Source: a virus
DNA length: 11,777 nucleotides
UHGV virus genome: UHGV-1359708
Direction: 5' to 3' (one strand)
The position numbers and the translations under genes were made by a program. The notes under the pieces were generated by a model. That model was not told where the DNA came from. It worked only from the letters and a program-made list of their open reading frames with translations, and searched no databases. Below, piece by piece: positions 6,932 to 11,777 of this stretch. Positions within the stretch are counted from its first letter, which is position 1. Every line of letters starts with the position of its first letter.

Positions 6932-7040
6932 CTTCGCAAACACCAGGAACGTGCAAAAACCAACTATGTAGAACGCAATGTTCAACAGATCTCTTTGCAT
7001 AGACTCACCTCATAATTAACAAATCATAACTGACATTAGT

Positions 7041-7076
7041 GCAATGCCGGACAGGTTGCATCTTGTCCGGAATTGC
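7041..7076 (+). promoter_or_regulatory. Interrupted inverted repeat / RNA hairpin upstream of the tailspike gene
   Basis: GCAAT-g-CCGGACA (7041-7053), 10-nt loop, TGTCCGG-a-ATTGC (7064-7076). There is no downstream T-tract, so it is not a classical intrinsic terminator. A third TCCGGA copy at 7081-7086 overlaps the tailspike Shine-Dalgarno (GGAG at 7084-7087), so alternative pairing could occlude the ribosome-binding site. Confidence 0.4.
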
Positions 7077-7095
7077 TACGTCCGGAGCAAATTAA

Positions 7096-9276
7096 ATGAC
7101 AGACATTATAACTAATGTTGTAATTGGGATGCCTTCGCAACTCTTCACTATGGCTCGTTCTTTTAAAGCCGTAGCCAATGGCAAAATTTATATCGGTAAA
7201 ATTGACACGGACCCGGTAAATCCTGAAAACCAAATTCAGGTTTATGTGGAGAACGAAGACGGATCTCACATTCCCGTTTCGCAACCAATAATTATTAACG
7301 CTGCTGGCTACCCTGTATATAACGGACAGATTGCTAAGTTCGTAACCGTGCAAGGGCATTCTATGGCTGTGTACGATGCATATGGATCACAGCAGTTCAA
7401 TTTCCCTAATGTGCTGAAGTACGATCCAGATCAGTTATCAGTCATGTTAAATCTATCTTGGCTTCGAGGAATGAATGGATTTTTAGGTGGTGAGGTTTAT
7501 CCTAATAAAATTGGAATTGATGCAAAAATAGGAGACTTAATTCCCGAAGGTGTAAGATTCGTTAGGCTTGATGGCGCCCTTATGATGATGAGCACACCAT
7601 TATCATCACCATTGACAATTACCAGTTATGACTCAACTGTAATTAATGATAATATTGAACTTTACCCAATATCATTTTTTAATGAGGTTAATTCTGGTTG
7701 GAAAATTGCACAAAATGACGCTCAACTTAGTAGACTACTTCCACTATCTGGAAATATCGGGATCGCTTACTCTCCCGTAACTGTAGAAGGTATATTTAAT
7801 ATTCAGGGAGACATCCTCATAAAGCCGTTATTGCCAAAAGTGACGGTAGATTCCAGACAATTATGGCTCAGATCCCCACGGACATGGAACGAATCAAATC
7901 AAGAGTTTGACTATACTCCATATGATATACGCATTGTCGGTAATTTCTTGTTTGATTTTTATCGGCAGAATGCTTCATTTGACCCAGGGGTTGGTTTGGC
8001 CATGCAATCTGCAGGTACACTTGAGCTTTCAGGGTGTGAATTGCAGGGGGCATGGAATAGCAACGTAACGATGGATTATGGGAGATGGGTTCTTGCCGAT
8101 AATCTGTACTCACATGATTGTGGTCGTGGGAAAATTCAAGATCCAGATGGCAGCAACCGAACTGGCATGGCGATCATTGTTAATGACCCCACAGAGGCGC
8201 ACGTCCATCATATCCGTTGCAGAAACACTTGGGCATCATCTTTGTTCTTCTCATCACGTCGCCCAAACCGTACGCTTAATCTTATGATTCACGATGTGAG
8301 CATTAATACCTCTGGTGGTAACGGTTTGCGTATTCAGTCAGACGACCTTGTGAACGGTTATGGTGATGGCACAGCTATCACAAGAGTTAACATAAACGCC
8401 GTTACAATCAAAAACTGTGAAAGCCACGGTCTTCGAGGGAATTTCCGTAATGGAGTAGTTACTGGACTATATGTAGAAAGTTCGAACGCAGGTGTCGCAA
8501 TTGAAGGAGCTAGTGACGTATCCTACGATAACGTTGTTATTCGTAACTGCTCGCAGGGTTTGTTATGCCGCTTCTATCCGGTAGAAAACACAAGGATGCG
8601 TTTTTCTAACTTCTTGATATCAGGTTGCTCTGCTGAAGCTGTTTATTTTTTGAGAAACTCAGCCAATACCACGACTAATCTTGCCGACATCGAGTTTGAC
8701 GGCATTACGATACACGCACTTGCAAATGGTGCAAAAGGGTTTGTTTTCAACGGTGGGCCTGCTGCGGTGCCAACCACAGATTTAACATTAAAAAATGTTC
8801 GCATAGTAGGCGCTTACCCTAACACAGAAAATGGGCATTATATCGTCATCATTAACTGCCGCCACATAGAGGTTGATAATGTGAACTTGAGGGGGTGCAA
8901 TGGAAGCGCAGAATCTTATTTACAAGCACTAGCCACACAGAGTGTTATTGTTAACAGGCTGGTAGCTGTGCAACCATTCGGGACAGTTAACAGGCCAATA
9001 TATACAAATGGTAGTGGTTCTGACGCTATAGTGAACATTACGAACTGTGTGGCCCCTGACACAACCACAGGTAGTATTGGGTACAACCCTGTACCAACAA
9101 AACGTTATGAGGCTAACAACCAGTTTGCCAATAGCTCACAACCTCAGCAGTATCCATTTACCAATTCCGGTGCGTTACGCGGTGGAGACGTAAACACCCT
9201 ATCTACTAAGGATATTGCTAACATAGTGGCAACACTAGTTAACGACATTAGCAATGGCAAATTTGTTGTAAGGTGA
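7096..9276 (+). CDS. Tailspike protein: P22-type head-binding N-terminal domain fused to a divergent parallel beta-helix receptor-binding/depolymerase domain
   Basis: The first roughly 114 residues ([50 protein letters not shown]...[29 protein letters not shown].....NVLKYDPDQ) match the conserved P22 gp9 head-binding domain as I recall it. The remaining roughly 610 residues are unrelated to P22 and show repetitive N/G/V/I-rich beta-helix-like strands (for example [63 protein letters not shown]). GGAG Shine-Dalgarno at 7084-7087. Confidence 0.9.
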
Positions 9277-9278
9277 CT

Positions 9279-10640
9279 ATGATGGCGCGTAGAAACGCGC
9301 TATCATCCTGTACTTTCTTTAAAGATCGGGTAAAAATAGTCATTTTTACATACAATATTATGAATATTTATGAATCATTTTTTACTTATGTGCTACCTGC
9401 GTTGTATGCCATAACATTAATATATTTAAGTGCCGTGTCATTCAAAAAACATGGCGTGTCATTCAAATCTGTTGGGATGTTATTCCTTGTTTTTACTCAT
9501 TTTTTTGGGTATATATCGCTTCCGTTTAGAGTTGGGGCAAAAGTTAGTTCTGCAGAATATATGCCGTATCAATATATAAATGATGTGTCTACGTTGTCGT
9601 TTATTGGTATAGTTTTGTTTTATGTATTCTCTCATACAGCGGCAGGAAGAAATAAAATAACTTTTTCTGATAAATATTTTATTGGTAGCCCAAAATTATT
9701 TGTAAGAACAACGTTGTTTTTAAGTTTTGTTGGAATGATGGCTTTTTATGCTATAAACGGCATATCTTTTAATTCTGATGATTATGCTTTAAAGCTTGGC
9801 GGAAATGCTGGTAGTGGTGTTATTATAATGATAATGTCATCTTTTGTTTCTGCTGTTATAGTGTATGCAATTACATCTGACGATAAGTATGTGTTCGTTA
9901 AATCAATTATAATGTCATTGTTATTTGGGATGGCATATTATGTGCTTATTGGTGGCTCAAGAAATGTAATGTTTTCCGCAATGTTTATTGTTGCTCTTAT
10001 TTGTCACTCTAGAGGCCTAATTGGCATATTGAAGTTAATATGCATAGGCTCTGCGTGCTTAATTCTAATTGGTATAATGGCTATAGTGAGATACTCAGAT
10101 GTTGATATTTCAGAGTCTGGCTCTCTGTTTGGCATTATAGTAAGATATTTAGCTGATAGCGTATCTCCTATCAATTATCAGAGTATAGCTGTTAAATACT
10201 TTAGCAATGATCGCAATGTTGGTGGTATCTATTATTTCTTTACTCAATTTTCAGGGTTTATCCCAAGATTCATATGGCCTGACAAACCAATTGTCACAAT
10301 GAATAGCTCATATTACTTTACCGTGAGTGCTCTTGGTCTTAGCAATGGATTGAATATGGCATCAACTTTGCTTGGGTCATCGCTTGTTATTTTCGGAAAG
10401 TATTTTTTCTGGTGCTCATATGTTATCTCAGGCGTTGTTTTTAGATTTCTTGATAAAATCATATTGATGAGGAGAGTTGGCGTAATACAAATAGCTGCAC
10501 TTATGACAATGCCTTTTTCATTTTTTATGGCAAGGGAGAGCCTTGAATTCTTTTTATTTATTTTCTTAAAAAATATAATAACTGTATCATTTGTATATTT
10601 TTCATATAAGGCAATATACTATATATTGCCTAAAAAATAA
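9279..10640 (+). CDS. Polytopic inner-membrane protein, tentatively a Wzy-like polysaccharide (O-antigen) polymerase or other surface-glycan modifying enzyme; start uncertain (alternative ATG at 9360)
   Basis: Long ORF in conspicuously AT-rich DNA immediately after the tailspike stop (TGA at 9274-9276). AAGGTG at 9270-9275 precedes ATG 9279/9282; the first hydrophobic helix begins right after the in-frame ATG at 9360 (MNIYESFFTYVLPALYAITLIYL). By eye there are at least 10 hydrophobic helix-length segments separated by short basic loops, plus one larger hydrophilic loop (RYSDVDISESGSLFGIIVRYLADSVSPINYQSIAVKYFSNDRNVGG). Size, Phe/Ile/Tyr-rich composition, low G+C and location next to a tailspike resemble phage- or host-encoded Wzy proteins. 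There is no acyltransferase-3 type N-terminal motif and no accompanying gtrA/gtrB. Confidence 0.7.
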   Translation: MMARRNALSSCTFFKDRVKIVIFTYNIMNIYESFFTYVLPALYAITLIYLSAVSFKKHGVSFKSVGMLFLVFTHFFGYISLPFRVGAKVSSAEYMPYQYINDVSTLSFIGIVLFYVFSHTAAGRNKITFSDKYFIGSPKLFVRTTLFLSFVGMMAFYAINGISFNSDDYALKLGGNAGSGVIIMIMSSFVSAVIVYAITSDDKYVFVKSIIMSLLFGMAYYVLIGGSRNVMFSAMFIVALICHSRGLIGILKLICIGSACLILIGIMAIVRYSDVDISESGSLFGIIVRYLADSVSPINYQSIAVKYFSNDRNVGGIYYFFTQFSGFIPRFIWPDKPIVTMNSSYYFTVSALGLSNGLNMASTLLGSSLVIFGKYFFWCSYVISGVVFRFLDKIILMRRVGVIQIAALMTMPFSFFMARESLEFFLFIFLKNIITVSFVYFSYKAIYYILPKK

Positions 10641-10682
10641 AAAACCGCACGCGATAAGCGTGCGGAAGTTCTCATTTATTTT
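10632..10682. terminator. Bidirectional rho-independent terminator between the convergent cargo genes
   Basis: GC-rich hairpin CCGCACGC (10645-10652), loop GATAA, GCGTGCGG (10658-10665). It is flanked by an A-run on the 5' side (10632-10644), which gives a U-tract for the minus-strand transcript, and by a T-rich tail AAGTTCTCATTTATTTT on the 3' side. It lies 5 nt after the + strand stop (10640) and 7 nt after the minus-strand stop (10672-10674). Confidence 0.75.
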
Positions 10683-10989
10683 GCATGTATAGTAACTTAT
10701 TATCTTTTGTGCATTTTACTAATATTTTTTCCTCGCCCCTTGAAGCTATGAACTGGCTATGGCTGTTGAAATCTATGTTATGACCAGCAAAGTCTAGCGC
10801 TATCATTTTGAGGTTTGATATGCATGATGAATATTCTCTTGAGAAAGAAGATCTTAATTTAAAGTTGTCACCTGAAATACTTTGCGTATCATGCCCTTTT
10901 GAGCTTGATGACATAGGATAAAAAGAAATAACAATTATTGTTGTAATGATTATTAATATAATTATATTTAAGCATTTATCCTTATTCAT
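10672..10989 (-). CDS. Small signal-anchored or secreted protein of unknown function (about 105 aa from ATG 10989; 118 aa if the upstream ATG at 11028 is used)
   Basis: Minus-strand ORF in the same AT-rich block. From Met-14 the protein reads MNKDKCLNIIILIIITTIIVISFYPMSSSSKGHD..., that is, a short basic N-terminus, one roughly 20-residue hydrophobic segment, a Ser-rich linker, then a hydrophilic body of about 70 aa. The ATG at 10989 has an AAGG 13 nt upstream; the ATG at 11028 has no recognisable Shine-Dalgarno. No lipobox. Ends at the bidirectional terminator. Confidence 0.5.
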   Translation of the reverse strand: MNKDKCLNIIILIIITTIIVISFYPMSSSSKGHDTQSISGDNFKLRSSFSREYSSCISNLKMIALDFAGHNIDFNSHSQFIASRGEEKILVKCTKDNKLLYMQNK

Positions 10990-11047
10990 TTCCGTTTGCC
11001 TTGTAATGATGTGGTAAATTCGCAACATGGTTGTGCATAAAATTCAG

Positions 11048-11061
11048 TTAAGTATATCACC
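11048..11061 (-). promoter_or_regulatory. Candidate extended -10 promoter element (TGnTATACT on the minus strand) for the small cargo gene
   Basis: Reverse complement of 11051-11061 reads GGTGATATACT, which is TG, one nucleotide, then TATACT, resembling an extended -10 element. No convincing -35 was found. It sits appropriately upstream of the 10989 start. Sequence-pattern evidence only. Confidence 0.3.
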
Positions 11062-11180
11062 AACAAAAATAACGATCGATATGTCTATTCATGCATAATT
11101 TCTCTAGTTTGTTAGTGACATAAAACCAAGTATGTAACAAGATGTTTCCTGTAATTGCTGCAACGCGCTGTTATTGTTCT

Positions 11181-11777
11181 TTAATCAACCTTCCCATCAA
11201 GCCAGTCTGCCCACCACTGCATCATTTCTCTGCGTTTGTCGAGATACTGAGCATGGTTGTATATTCCACGCACAGATCCGCCGTTGGCATGTGCCAGTTG
11301 CACTTCAATAGCGTCAGCAGGCCATTCGTGCTCGTTCATAATTGTGCTGAATTCATGCCTGAATCCGTGACCGCTTTCCAGACCCTCATAGCCGATTTGT
11401 TTGATCACAAGCAGTACAGCGTTCTCGCAAATTGGCTTCTTCTTATCGTTGCGCCCGGCAAAAACAAACTCTGATACTGGTTTGGTGATTGAGCTTAGCG
11501 TAGTGAGAAGTTCAACTACCTGGTCTGACATAGGAACCACATGAATTTTGCGTCCCTTCATCACACTGGCGTCAATGGTGATAATCCTGTTTTCAAAATC
11601 GACGTTCTTCCATAGCATGGAACGAAGCTCTTTTGTTCTGAGGGCTGTGTAGCGTAAAACTTTGGTCGCAATGAGCGATACGATGCTTCCTGAAAATGTT
11701 GCCAGTGCTTTGTTAAATGCCGAGATCTGGTCGGCAGGTAAAAACGGGAAGTTCTTCTTGCGGTATCCCTTCATGGC
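11181..11777 (-). CDS. int: Tyrosine integrase, C-terminal catalytic domain (partial; the N-terminal part lies beyond the window end)
   Basis: The minus-strand ORF runs off the window edge; the ATG at 11774 listed in the ORF track is internal. It contains the hallmark catalytic elements of tyrosine recombinases in order: Arg in ...MKGRKIHVVPMSDQ..., H-x-x-R in ...HGFRHEFST..., and the nucleophile Tyr in ...VRGIYNHAQYLDKRREMMQWWADWLDGKVD (stop at 11181-11183). The C-terminal YNHAQYL..RR.MMQWWAD.LD tail resembles P4/CP4-57-type integrases as I recall them. Confidence 0.85.
   Translation of the reverse strand, partial: AMKGYRKKNFPFLPADQISAFNKALATFSGSIVSLIATKVLRYTALRTKELRSMLWKNVDFENRIITIDASVMKGRKIHVVPMSDQVVELLTTLSSITKPVSEFVFAGRNDKKKPICENAVLLVIKQIGYEGLESGHGFRHEFSTIMNEHEWPADAIEVQLAHANGGSVRGIYNHAQYLDKRREMMQWWADWLDGKVD

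What the first reader, a model, noticed from the sequence alone, without database searches (positions are those of the whole stretch)
9277..11030. AT-rich cargo island between tailspike and integrase: a convergent two-gene membrane module (candidate seroconversion or exclusion system)
Downstream of the tailspike stop, base composition shifts abruptly to a much lower G+C (by inspection, not computed) than the structural genes. The block holds exactly two genes in convergent orientation sharing one bidirectional terminator: a roughly 430-455 aa polytopic membrane protein and a roughly 105-118 aa signal-anchored protein. This is the position where P22-like phages carry lysogenic-conversion cargo (gtrABC in P22, oac in Sf6), but the content here matches neither: there is no GtrA/GtrB pair and no acyltransferase-3 motif. 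Established precedent exists for phages whose tailspike targets O-antigen to carry their own O-antigen polymerase plus a small inhibitor of the host polymerase (Salmonella phage epsilon15, Pseudomonas phage D3). A large Wzy-like protein plus a small membrane protein next to a receptor-specific tailspike fits that logic, but in an apparently different gene arrangement and protein set.
Basis: partly seen in the sequence, partly recalled or inferred. Interest (0 to 1): 0.85.

Follow-up and report, generated by a model that had tools for sequence, protein, structure and literature searches.

The report
Phage-borne sugar-chain polymerase conversion module
A P22-like E. coli prophage carries, right after its tailspike gene, its own surface-polysaccharide polymerase plus a small unknown periplasmic protein, which probably re-link the host's sugar repeat units so that the lysogen no longer shows the receptor the phage used to get in.

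Summary
Bases 9277-11180 are 32% G+C, against 51% in the structural genes and 42% in the tailspike. They hold two convergent genes around one hairpin.

The large gene (true start ATG 9360, 426 aa) is a Wzy-type repeat-unit polymerase of Pfam family WzyE. It is not the ECA polymerase orthologue. It is 32% identical to the host's own polymerase in a galF-gnd Wzx/Wzy locus. That locus is present in 24 of the 27 E. coli genomes that carry the module, and in 67 of 5426 overall.

The small gene (105 aa) founds a rare, unannotated family. Every relative lies next to a phage-borne polytopic polymerase-like gene of a different family and a tailspike with a homologous receptor-binding domain. In E. coli these relatives occur only in hosts with the same galF-gnd locus.

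The layout parallels the Salmonella phage epsilon15 and Pseudomonas phage D3 conversion units (polymerase plus inhibitor), but without sequence similarity.

Best reading: a polymerase-swap lysogenic-conversion module. The small protein acts on the host machinery, most likely as a polymerase inhibitor. That role is inferred, not shown.

Verdict: new variant of a known kind, moderately interesting. The module sits in the ST410 high-risk clone.

The parts
7096..9276 (+). Tailspike, 726 aa. It has a P22-type head-binding domain (aa 1-113) and a receptor-binding domain (aa ~115-726). The receptor-binding domain belongs to the same mobile block as the two cargo genes.
   Evidence: Pfam Head_binding, E 6e-64. 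The receptor-binding domain is 70%, 50% and 50% identical to tailspikes in L003, L008 and L015, which sit beside related modules. Its DNA is found in exactly the same 27 E. coli genomes as the module.
9279..9306 (+). Intrinsic terminator hairpin just after the tailspike stop. It separates late transcription from the cargo.
   Evidence: 12-bp stem followed by a T-rich tail. Free energy -20.1 kcal/mol, z -4.6.
9360..10640 (+). wzy-like gene: a 426-aa polytopic repeat-unit polymerase of the WzyE Pfam family.
   Evidence: PF06899 68.4 bits (cut-off 25), but NCBIfam ECA-polymerase equivalog only 72 bits against a cut-off of 510. Motifs GGxR, RY, SP and F..P..W..P..N are shared with true WzyE. It is 32% identical to the host galF-gnd polymerase and 39% identical to a V. 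cholerae polymerase inside a wza-wzb-wzc glycan locus. The AF2 model has pTM 0.81 and is all-helical.
10645..10665 (.). Hairpin shared by the two convergent genes. It is a canonical terminator for the small gene and non-canonical for wzy.
10672..10989 (-). Small gene, 105 aa. It has an N-terminal hydrophobic helix (signal anchor or signal peptide), a disordered linker, and a roughly 55-aa helix plus four-strand domain with two invariant cysteines. It is the proposed modulator or inhibitor of the host polymerase machinery.
   Evidence: No Pfam, NCBIfam, PHROG, PADLOC or PDB match. Exhaustive searches found only a handful of relatives. Each relative is adjacent to a polytopic polymerase-like gene and a homologous tailspike. 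AF2 pLDDT is about 88 over aa 50-100. Invariant residues are C56 and C93.
10990..11180 (.). AT-rich spacer between the small gene and int. It is the presumed promoter region for the small gene.
   Evidence: G+C 0.34. No ORF, no Rfam hit. The promoter is not demonstrated; the promoter-like scan is no better than shuffles.
11181..11777 (-). 3' part of the prophage integrase intS, marking the prophage end next to tRNA-Arg argW.
   Evidence: Pfam Phage_integrase, E 1e-39. The annotated context in strain 124 is intS-argW-yfdC.

Best explanation
The island is a lysogenic-conversion (polymerase-swap) module that travels together with the tailspike receptor-binding domain.

Proposed mechanism:
1. The phage adsorbs through its tailspike to a Wzx/Wzy-dependent surface heteropolysaccharide. 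This polymer is encoded at galF-gnd in a subset of O8-typed E. coli: a six-gene locus wzy-wzx-orf-GT4-pssD-pssE, possibly a K-type or LPS-linked polymer.
2. In the lysogen the phage-encoded WzyE-family polymerase polymerises the same undecaprenyl-PP-linked repeat units in the periplasm, probably with a different inter-unit linkage.
3. The 105-aa periplasm-facing small protein acts on the host side of the machinery, most likely by inhibiting the resident polymerase or uncoupling it from Wzz.
4. The converted polymer therefore replaces the native one, and the cell is no longer a receptor for this phage and its relatives.

What is shown: the polymerase family assignment; homology to the host polymerase; linkage of the module to one host glycan locus and one tailspike type; and the obligate neighbourhood of the small-protein family with phage polymerase-like genes.

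What is inferred: the substrate, the changed linkage, the inhibitor role and the exclusion phenotype.
For: (1) Polymerase identity.
- Pfam WzyE 68 bits against a cut-off of 25.
- Conserved GGxR, RY, SP and PxxxWxxxP motifs shared with true WzyE.
- Homologues sit inside Wzx/Wzy loci: V. cholerae wza-wzb-wzc-wzy-... and E. coli galF-wzy-wzx-...-gnd.

(2) Host link.
- 24 of the 27 module carriers have that galF-gnd locus, which only 67 of 5426 genomes have. Fisher p = 4e-45, although the genomes are clonally non-independent.
- One of the three exceptions, N273, is the same clone with an O131 locus recombined in.
- O8 wzm/wzt occurs in 308 genomes. The three carriers without the galF-gnd locus lack O8 where checked (N273 and E94; E92 was not inspected). 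The module therefore appears to track the Wzx/Wzy locus and not O8.
- The host polymerase is intact in strain 124 and annotated as a polymerase in the other carriers listed. It is 32% identical to the phage one.

(3) Small protein.
- Its only relatives (P0011, P0013, P0015, P0016) lie directly upstream of a 392-406-aa polytopic protein of another family. That protein has weak Wzy_C and TIGR04370 hits and a precomputed PF13425 hit. Where the pair is intact (L008, L014-L018) the genes overlap by 4 nt or are 1 nt apart.
- These pairs are convergent on tailspikes whose receptor-binding domains are 37-50% identical to this one.
- The E. coli version of this second module occurs in only 2 of 5426 genomes. 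Both have the same host galF-gnd locus (p = 1.5e-4).
- So the small protein is constant while the polymerase family changes, and it tracks the host glycan type.

(4) Precedent.
- The layout equals epsilon15: tailspike, then convergent iap-wzy.
- D3 and epsilon15 use a polymerase plus an inhibitor (PMC4815439).
- Acinetobacter prophages carry wzy genes that override the K-locus polymerase (PMC13228068).

(5) Other support.
- Island G+C is 0.32, close to the host glycan locus at 0.30.
- Tailspike receptor-binding-domain DNA and the module co-occur in 27 of 27 genomes.
- The module is kept even where the prophage is degraded or the tailspike is cut by IS3.
Against: - There is no experimental or structural evidence for activity, substrate or linkage.
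- The small protein has no similarity to epsilon15 Iap, and fold searches gave no informative match.
- Two relatives of the polymerase occur without the small protein. CobraSix has an unrelated tail fibre and only 29-aa and 51-aa hydrophobic ORFs. In L003 the tailspike receptor-binding domain is 70% identical, but only a 45-aa ORF follows, with non-significant similarity to the helix.
- E92/E94 carry the module in an O180 host.
- The phage and host polymerases belong to the same family. A hypothetical inhibitor would therefore have to discriminate between 32%-identical proteins.
- Many carriers are one clone (ST410), so the genome counts overstate independence.
Confidence: 0.65

Rival explanations
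1. The polymerase part is right, but the small protein is not an inhibitor of the host polymerase. It could instead be an accessory partner of the incoming polymerase, for example coupling it to host Wzz or WaaL or setting chain length. Or it could be an unrelated periplasmic superinfection-exclusion or moron protein that merely hitch-hikes in the same mosaic block.
For: - No similarity to epsilon15 Iap.
- It has a folded, disulfide-capable periplasmic domain rather than a bare transmembrane peptide.
- In the window it is a separate, convergent transcription unit.
- Polymerase homologues exist without it.
- Small stand-alone phage proteins that alter O antigen by unknown routes exist (Gnarl proteins, PMC12373910).
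Against: - It accompanies two unrelated polymerase families and is translationally coupled to one of them (4-nt overlap in L008). That argues against a dedicated subunit of a single polymerase, and also against pure hitch-hiking.
- Every known family member is next to a polymerase-like gene.
Confidence: 0.25
2. The WzyE-family protein acts on enterobacterial common antigen (ECA) and not on the galF-gnd polymer. It would change ECA polymerisation in the lysogen.
For: The best Pfam and NCBIfam hits are the ECA polymerase models. ECA repeat units are available in every E. coli.
Against: - The score against the ECA equivalog is 72 bits against a cut-off of 510, and identity to true WzyE is 22-24%.
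- The closest relatives are polymerases inside heteropolysaccharide Wzx/Wzy loci.
- ECA is universal, so it cannot explain the near-exclusive association with one galF-gnd locus.
Confidence: 0.05
3. The island is inert cargo: a captured fragment of a glycan locus with no current function in the lysogen. It would be kept only through linkage to the tailspike.
For: G+C is like that of O-antigen loci. No promoter is demonstrated. The family is rare.
Against: - Both ORFs are intact and at least 99% identical across 27 genomes in several prophage backbones that are themselves only 96-98% identical.
- The module is retained where the prophage is degraded or the tailspike is disrupted by IS3.
- Catalytic-type motifs are conserved.
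- An analogous second module evolved with the same small protein.
Confidence: 0.05

Closest known systems
Salmonella phage epsilon15 conversion unit: gp20 tailspike, gp21 O-antigen polymerase (Wzy-beta), gp22 alpha-polymerase inhibitor
   Same: - A polymerase gene and a small membrane-protein gene lie immediately after the tailspike, behind a terminator.
- The host keeps its own polymerase.
- The type-B relatives (L008, L015) have exactly the epsilon15 order: small gene, then polymerase, convergent on the tailspike.
   Different: - No sequence similarity of either protein.
- The epsilon15 polymerase is annotated in its record as O-antigen ligase family; here it is WzyE family.
- Epsilon15 Iap is 66 aa with two transmembrane helices and no folded periplasmic domain.
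- In the window the polymerase is co-directional with the tailspike and the small gene is convergent.
- The host is E. coli and the phage is P22-like, integrated at argW.
Pseudomonas phage D3 serotype-converting unit (Iap, Wzy-beta, Oac)
   Same: The logic is the same: inhibitor plus replacement polymerase, giving a new inter-unit linkage and resistance to superinfection (PMC4815439, PMC12373910).
   Different: - D3 Iap is a very short peptide reported to mimic Wzz (Taylor 2013, cited in PMC4815439). The protein here has a folded periplasmic domain.
- No O-acetylase is present here.
Acinetobacter baumannii prophage-borne wzy genes (wzy1Ph, wzy2Ph) that override the K-locus polymerase
   Same: The prophages carry both a tailspike depolymerase and an alternative Wzy. 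The wzy genes move between prophages, and the resident Wzy is suppressed by an unknown factor (PMC13228068).
   Different: Different genus and different polymerase sequences. No candidate suppressor gene has been identified there; here a conserved candidate sits next to the polymerase.
WzyE, the enterobacterial common antigen polymerase
   Same: Same Pfam family and shared motifs.
   Different: - Only 22-24% identity, far below the equivalog cut-off.
- Encoded on a phage.
- Associated with a heteropolysaccharide locus and not with the wec cluster.
gtrABC and oac cassettes of P22, Sf6, SfV and related phages, at the same tailspike-int position
   Same: Same genomic slot and the same presumed purpose: receptor modification after lysogeny. 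K-12's own argW remnant is recalled to carry a gtr-like cassette next to intS; this rests on my own knowledge and was not checked here.
   Different: The chemistry differs: polymerisation rather than glucosylation or acetylation. No Gtr or acyltransferase domains are present.

Membership tests
Wzy-type repeat-unit polymerases, Pfam WzyE family (PF06899) | Profile match above the curated family threshold over most of the protein | tested here: met
   68.4 bits against a gathering score of 25; aa 10-399 match profile positions 10-406 of 447. PGAP names the same protein 'WzyE family oligosaccharide polymerase'.
Wzy-type repeat-unit polymerases, Pfam WzyE family (PF06899) | Conserved residues shared with a bona fide WzyE | tested here: met
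   Invariant G198-G199-x-R201, R244-Y245, S269-P270, F297, P302, W306, P310, N315, D365 and R392 in an alignment that includes Salmonella WzyE. Their catalytic role was not tested.
Wzy-type repeat-unit polymerases, Pfam WzyE family (PF06899) | Polytopic inner-membrane protein with a large loop between helix bundles | tested here: met
   The AF2 model is all-helical with pTM 0.81 and a less confident region at about aa 245-350. Hydropathy gives about 10-12 hydrophobic segments. Topology was not determined experimentally.
Wzy-type repeat-unit polymerases, Pfam WzyE family (PF06899) | Relatives encoded inside Wzx/Wzy-dependent glycan loci | tested here: met
   V. cholerae P0004 lies after wza-wzb-wzc, followed by glycosyltransferases. 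The E. coli galF-gnd locus has a 32%-identical polymerase next to wzx.
Wzy-type repeat-unit polymerases, Pfam WzyE family (PF06899) | Polymerase activity on Und-PP-linked repeat units | not testable with these tools
   Needs LPS or capsule profiling and linkage analysis.
WzyE proper (ECA polymerase orthologue) | Score at or above the NCBIfam equivalog cut-off, and location in the wec cluster | tested here: not met
   72 bits against a cut-off of 510. The gene lies in a prophage between the tailspike and intS.
epsilon15/D3-type polymerase-swap conversion unit | Phage-encoded polymerase in addition to an intact host polymerase for the same pathway | tested here: met
   The host WzyE-family polymerase is intact in strain 124. 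24 of 27 carriers have the host locus, and PGAP names a polymerase under the match in those listed.
epsilon15/D3-type polymerase-swap conversion unit | Small membrane protein encoded next to the polymerase | tested here: met
   105-aa gene at 10672-10989. Its homologues are always adjacent to a polymerase-like gene.
epsilon15/D3-type polymerase-swap conversion unit | Sequence homology to the known Iap or Wzy-beta proteins | tested here: not met
   BLASTP against epsilon15 gp21 and gp22 found no significant match. The D3 proteins were not compared.
epsilon15/D3-type polymerase-swap conversion unit | Small protein inhibits the host polymerase; the new polymer has a different inter-unit linkage; the lysogen resists the phage | not testable with these tools
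   Functional assays are required.
Gtr or Oac seroconversion cassettes | GtrA/GtrB/GtrC-type or acyltransferase-3 domains | tested here: not met
   No such Pfam or NCBIfam hits for either protein.
Known anti-phage defence systems (PADLOC) and PHROG families | Profile match | tested here: not met
   No hits.

The most novel reading that the evidence does not exclude
The 105-aa protein founds a new class of phage-encoded, periplasm-facing protein inhibitors or re-programmers of a host Wzy/Wzz machine. On this reading it is specific for one host glycan type rather than for the phage polymerase. It forms a three-part mobile cassette (tailspike receptor-binding domain, inhibitor, interchangeable polymerase) that moves between podovirus- and myovirus-type prophages. 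It would also silently change the surface polysaccharide of 'O8' strains, including the pandemic ST410 B4/H24RxC clone.
Probability: 0.35. Interest if true: 0.75.

Novelty: new variant of a known kind. Interest (0 to 1): 0.6.

Why it matters
- Polymerase-swap seroconversion is textbook for Salmonella epsilon15 and Pseudomonas D3. For E. coli, a major 2019 review only hypothesises it (PMC7685785).
- Here is a concrete E. coli candidate with a defined host glycan locus, a defined tailspike and a conserved candidate modulator. The question therefore becomes directly testable.
- The candidate modulator also offers an answer to an open question in Acinetobacter: how prophage wzy genes silence the resident polymerase (PMC13228068).
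- About 39% (26 of 67) of complete E. coli genomes with this galF-gnd locus carry one of the two modules, among them many isolates that appear to belong to the carbapenem-resistant ST410 lineage. In-silico 'O8' typing may therefore miss a phage-driven change of the exposed polysaccharide, which matters for phage therapy, vaccines and serotyping.

Tried and rejected
- PDB sequence searches with both proteins: nothing.
- Foldseek of the polymerase model against the PDB: no match with E below 1.
- PHROGs, PADLOC and Rfam: no hits.
- Phage GenBank records: only Enterobacter phage CobraSix has a polymerase homologue, and none has the small protein.
- IMG/VR: only the same module plus five CobraSix-like contigs.
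- Kapi1, another argW P22-like phage that modifies O antigen through an unidentified gene, does not carry this module: no match in the phage collection.
- Promoter scan: no better than shuffled sequence.
- P0012 and P0014, weak hits to the small protein, are repetitive or coiled-coil proteins and were rejected as compositional matches.
- The 45-aa ORF after the L003 polymerase resembles only the hydrophobic helix (E 0.64) and is not accepted as a homologue.
- Rejected readings: a Gtr or Oac cassette, a defence system, and ECA polymerase orthology.
Full report
**Context**

The window is the right arm of a P22-like prophage. It carries homologues of gp10, the tail needle, gp14, gp7, gp20 and gp16. 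These are followed by a 726-aa tailspike with a P22 head-binding domain (Pfam E 6e-64), the island, and the 3' part of an integrase. In complete E. coli genomes the same block lies next to intS, tRNA-Arg (argW) and yfdC.

**Observation**

- G+C falls from 0.506 (structural genes) and about 0.42 (tailspike) to 0.324 across 9277-11180. It returns to 0.47 in int. No 1.7-kb window upstream of the island is below 0.416.
- The island holds two convergent ORFs.
- A 12-bp hairpin with a T-rich tail (9279-9306) follows the tailspike stop, inside the 5' extension of the long ORF. All homologues start at the residue equivalent to ATG 9360. The polymerase is therefore 426 aa (9360-10640).
- The small gene is best read from ATG 10989 (105 aa), as in PGAP and in homologue P0011.
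- The shared hairpin 10645-10665 is stable on both strands, but a canonical U-run follows it only on the minus strand.
- No Gtr or acyltransferase domains are present. Rfam finds nothing.

**The large protein**

- It matches Pfam WzyE (PF06899) at 68 bits against a cut-off of 25. It matches the ECA-polymerase equivalog at only 72 bits against a cut-off of 510. It belongs to the family but is not the orthologue.
- An alignment with Salmonella WzyE keeps GGxR (198-201), R244-Y245, S269-P270, F297, P302, W306, P310 and N315 invariant.
- The family around it is small (8 clusters at E below 1e-5):
  - A 62% relative lies directly after a tailspike in metagenomic contigs (L003).
  - A 55% relative lies directly after the tail-fibre gene of Enterobacter siphophage CobraSix.
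  - 32-39% relatives occur in Vibrio cholerae. The one whose context was inspected (39%) follows wza-wzb-wzc and precedes glycosyltransferases.
- The AF2 model is confident (pTM 0.81), but no solved structure matches it.

**The host link**

- The module (at least 99% identical) is in 27 of 5426 complete E. coli genomes, always chromosomal.
- In strain 124 the galF-gnd interval holds wzy (WzyE family, 413 aa), wzx, a 496-aa ORF, GT4, pssD and pssE. This is followed by gnd-ugd-wzzB and an O8-type wzm/wzt mannan cluster.
- The host polymerase is 32% identical to the phage polymerase. The whole locus has the same gene set and order as the V. cholerae locus.
- The six-gene locus occurs in 67 genomes, in two variants about 97% identical. 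24 of the 27 module carriers have it (Fisher p = 4e-45, inflated by clonality).
- There are three exceptions:
  - N273 shares colanic-acid proteins with strain 124 but has an O131 locus recombined in. This is an O-locus switch after lysogeny.
  - E92 and E94 carry the module and a 99%-identical tailspike. E94 has an O180 locus. E92 was not inspected.
- O8 wzm/wzt is in 308 genomes. Every carrier of the module either has the Wzx/Wzy locus or, where checked, lacks O8. The association therefore appears to be with the Wzx/Wzy polymer and not with the O8 mannan.
- DebRoy et al. note that O8 carries wzx/wzy genes at this position 'directed to form a capsule' (PMC4732683). The target may thus be a K-type or LPS-linked heteropolysaccharide.
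- Many of the locus-bearing genomes appear, from strain names, to belong to the ST410 lineage. One of them, SCEC020026, appears to be the B4/H24RxC reference strain '020026', which is typed O8 (PMC10786849).

**The small protein**

- It has no match in Pfam, NCBIfam, PHROGs, PADLOC or the PDB.
- An exhaustive HMMER scan of 1.84 billion representatives and a profile search of 5.8 billion proteins found only four relatives: P0011, P0013, P0015 and P0016. Two further weak hits are compositional.
- Every relative has the same neighbourhood. The small gene lies directly upstream of, and co-directional with, a polytopic protein of 392-406 aa where intact, and convergent on a tailspike. The two genes overlap by 4 nt in L008 and are 1 nt apart in L014-L018.
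- This polytopic protein is unrelated by BLAST to the window polymerase. It gives only weak Wzy_C and TIGR04370 hits plus a precomputed PF13425 (O-antigen_lig) hit.
- The tailspikes have either P22 head-binding or Tail_spike_N adaptors. Their receptor-binding domains are 37-50% identical to the window's.
- This second module occurs in only two complete E. coli genomes, A10 and MY203L1. Both belong to the 67 genomes with the same galF-gnd locus (p = 1.5e-4).
- The small protein and the tailspike receptor-binding domain are therefore the constant elements. Both track the host glycan type, while the polymerase is interchangeable.
- The tailspike receptor-binding-domain DNA occurs in exactly the 27 genomes that carry the module.
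- The backbones differ (96-98% identity, some degraded, one tailspike cut by IS3), while the module stays at least 99% identical.

**Structure of the small protein**

- The AF2 model has a helix at aa 3-23, a disordered linker at aa 25-42, and then a helix (53-65) packed on four antiparallel strands (71-104), with pLDDT about 88.
- F23, P25, the SSF motif (47-49), Y53, C56 and C93 are invariant.
- The two cysteines and the N-terminal hydrophobic helix fit a periplasmic, membrane-tethered or secreted domain.
- Whether the helix is cleaved could not be decided.
- Fold searches gave nothing informative.

**Mechanism**

The layout reproduces the Salmonella phage epsilon15 unit: tailspike gp20, a terminator, then the convergent pair gp22 (alpha-polymerase inhibitor) and gp21 (polymerase). 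There is no sequence similarity to either epsilon15 protein.

In D3 and epsilon15 an inhibitor blocks the host polymerase while a phage polymerase makes a new linkage, which excludes further infection (PMC4815439). In Acinetobacter, prophage wzy genes override the resident polymerase by an unknown route (PMC13228068).

The most economical reading here is the same logic with new parts:
- The phage polymerase re-polymerises the host repeat unit.
- The small protein acts on the host machinery.

I put about 0.9 on the polymerase assignment, about 0.65 on the conversion model as a whole, and about 0.4-0.45 on the specific inhibitor role.

The main counter-evidence:
- Polymerase homologues occur without the small protein (CobraSix, L003).
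- The module occurs in an O180 host (E94).
- Nothing functional has been shown.

**Novelty**

- PGAP already names the polymerase, so the gene is not unseen.
- I found no paper describing a phage-borne Wzy conversion unit in E. coli. The 2019 review only speculates on one.
- The small-protein family and its three-way linkage with tailspike type and host locus appear undescribed.
- This is a new variant of a known kind of system.

Noticed in passing
window 7096-9276; L003 1-2166; L008 7626-10079; L015 7588-9591: The same tailspike receptor-binding domain (37-70% identity) is fused to two different virion adaptors: P22 Head_binding, and Tail_spike_N of TSP1/Gp66 type. It is therefore shared between podovirus-type and myovirus-type prophages.
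   Followed up: partly
window 9273-9359: The long GTG ORF (455 aa) and PGAP's 453-aa call include the tailspike terminator hairpin. Homologue N-termini indicate ATG 9360. In E94, PGAP picks a shorter start and there is extra sequence between the tailspike and wzy.
   Followed up: partly
L001 (strain 124, NZ_CP048344.1 1441602-1455465): In this genome the prophage upstream of the tailspike has a different organisation, with an Arc/antirepressor region and pseudogenised gp10 and lysis genes. It nevertheless keeps tailspike, wzy, small gene and intS intact, which suggests selection on the cargo.
   Followed up: no
NZ_CP091016/18/20 (STEC306-308), about 1.60 Mb and about 3.50 Mb: These genomes show two places for both the module and the tailspike receptor-binding domain. 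That means two copies of the block in one chromosome (a double lysogen or a duplication).
   Followed up: no
[not shown]
   Followed up: no
L012 (N273, NZ_CP189521.1 1800001-1835000): This is the same clonal background as strain 124, but the galF-his region is replaced by an O131 sialic-acid-type locus and wzzB carries an internal stop. The lysogen has undergone an O-locus switch.
   Followed up: partly
L010 18162-19577 (strain 124): The manC-type gene of the O8 mannan cluster has an internal stop, so O8 mannan synthesis may be impaired in this strain.
   Followed up: no
L010 9484-10974; L006 12448-13944: A roughly 496-aa ORF with only a faint asparagine-synthase-like hit is conserved at the same position in the E. 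coli and V. cholerae glycan loci. It may be an amidotransferase acting on a uronic acid.
   Followed up: no
L002 8330-8571 (CobraSix); L003 3603-3740: Tiny hydrophobic ORFs (51, 29 and 45 aa) lie convergent to the polymerase homologues, where the small gene would be. They could be Iap-like peptides or chance ORFs.
   Followed up: partly
L021 7874-10491 (E94): Beyond intS there is a MazE/PemK toxin-antitoxin pair and a P2-family capsid gene instead of argW-yfdC. The prophage sits next to another mobile element there.
   Followed up: no
window 7036-7359 (-): A 107-aa ORF lies antisense across the tailspike start. It has no support and is probably spurious.
   Followed up: no
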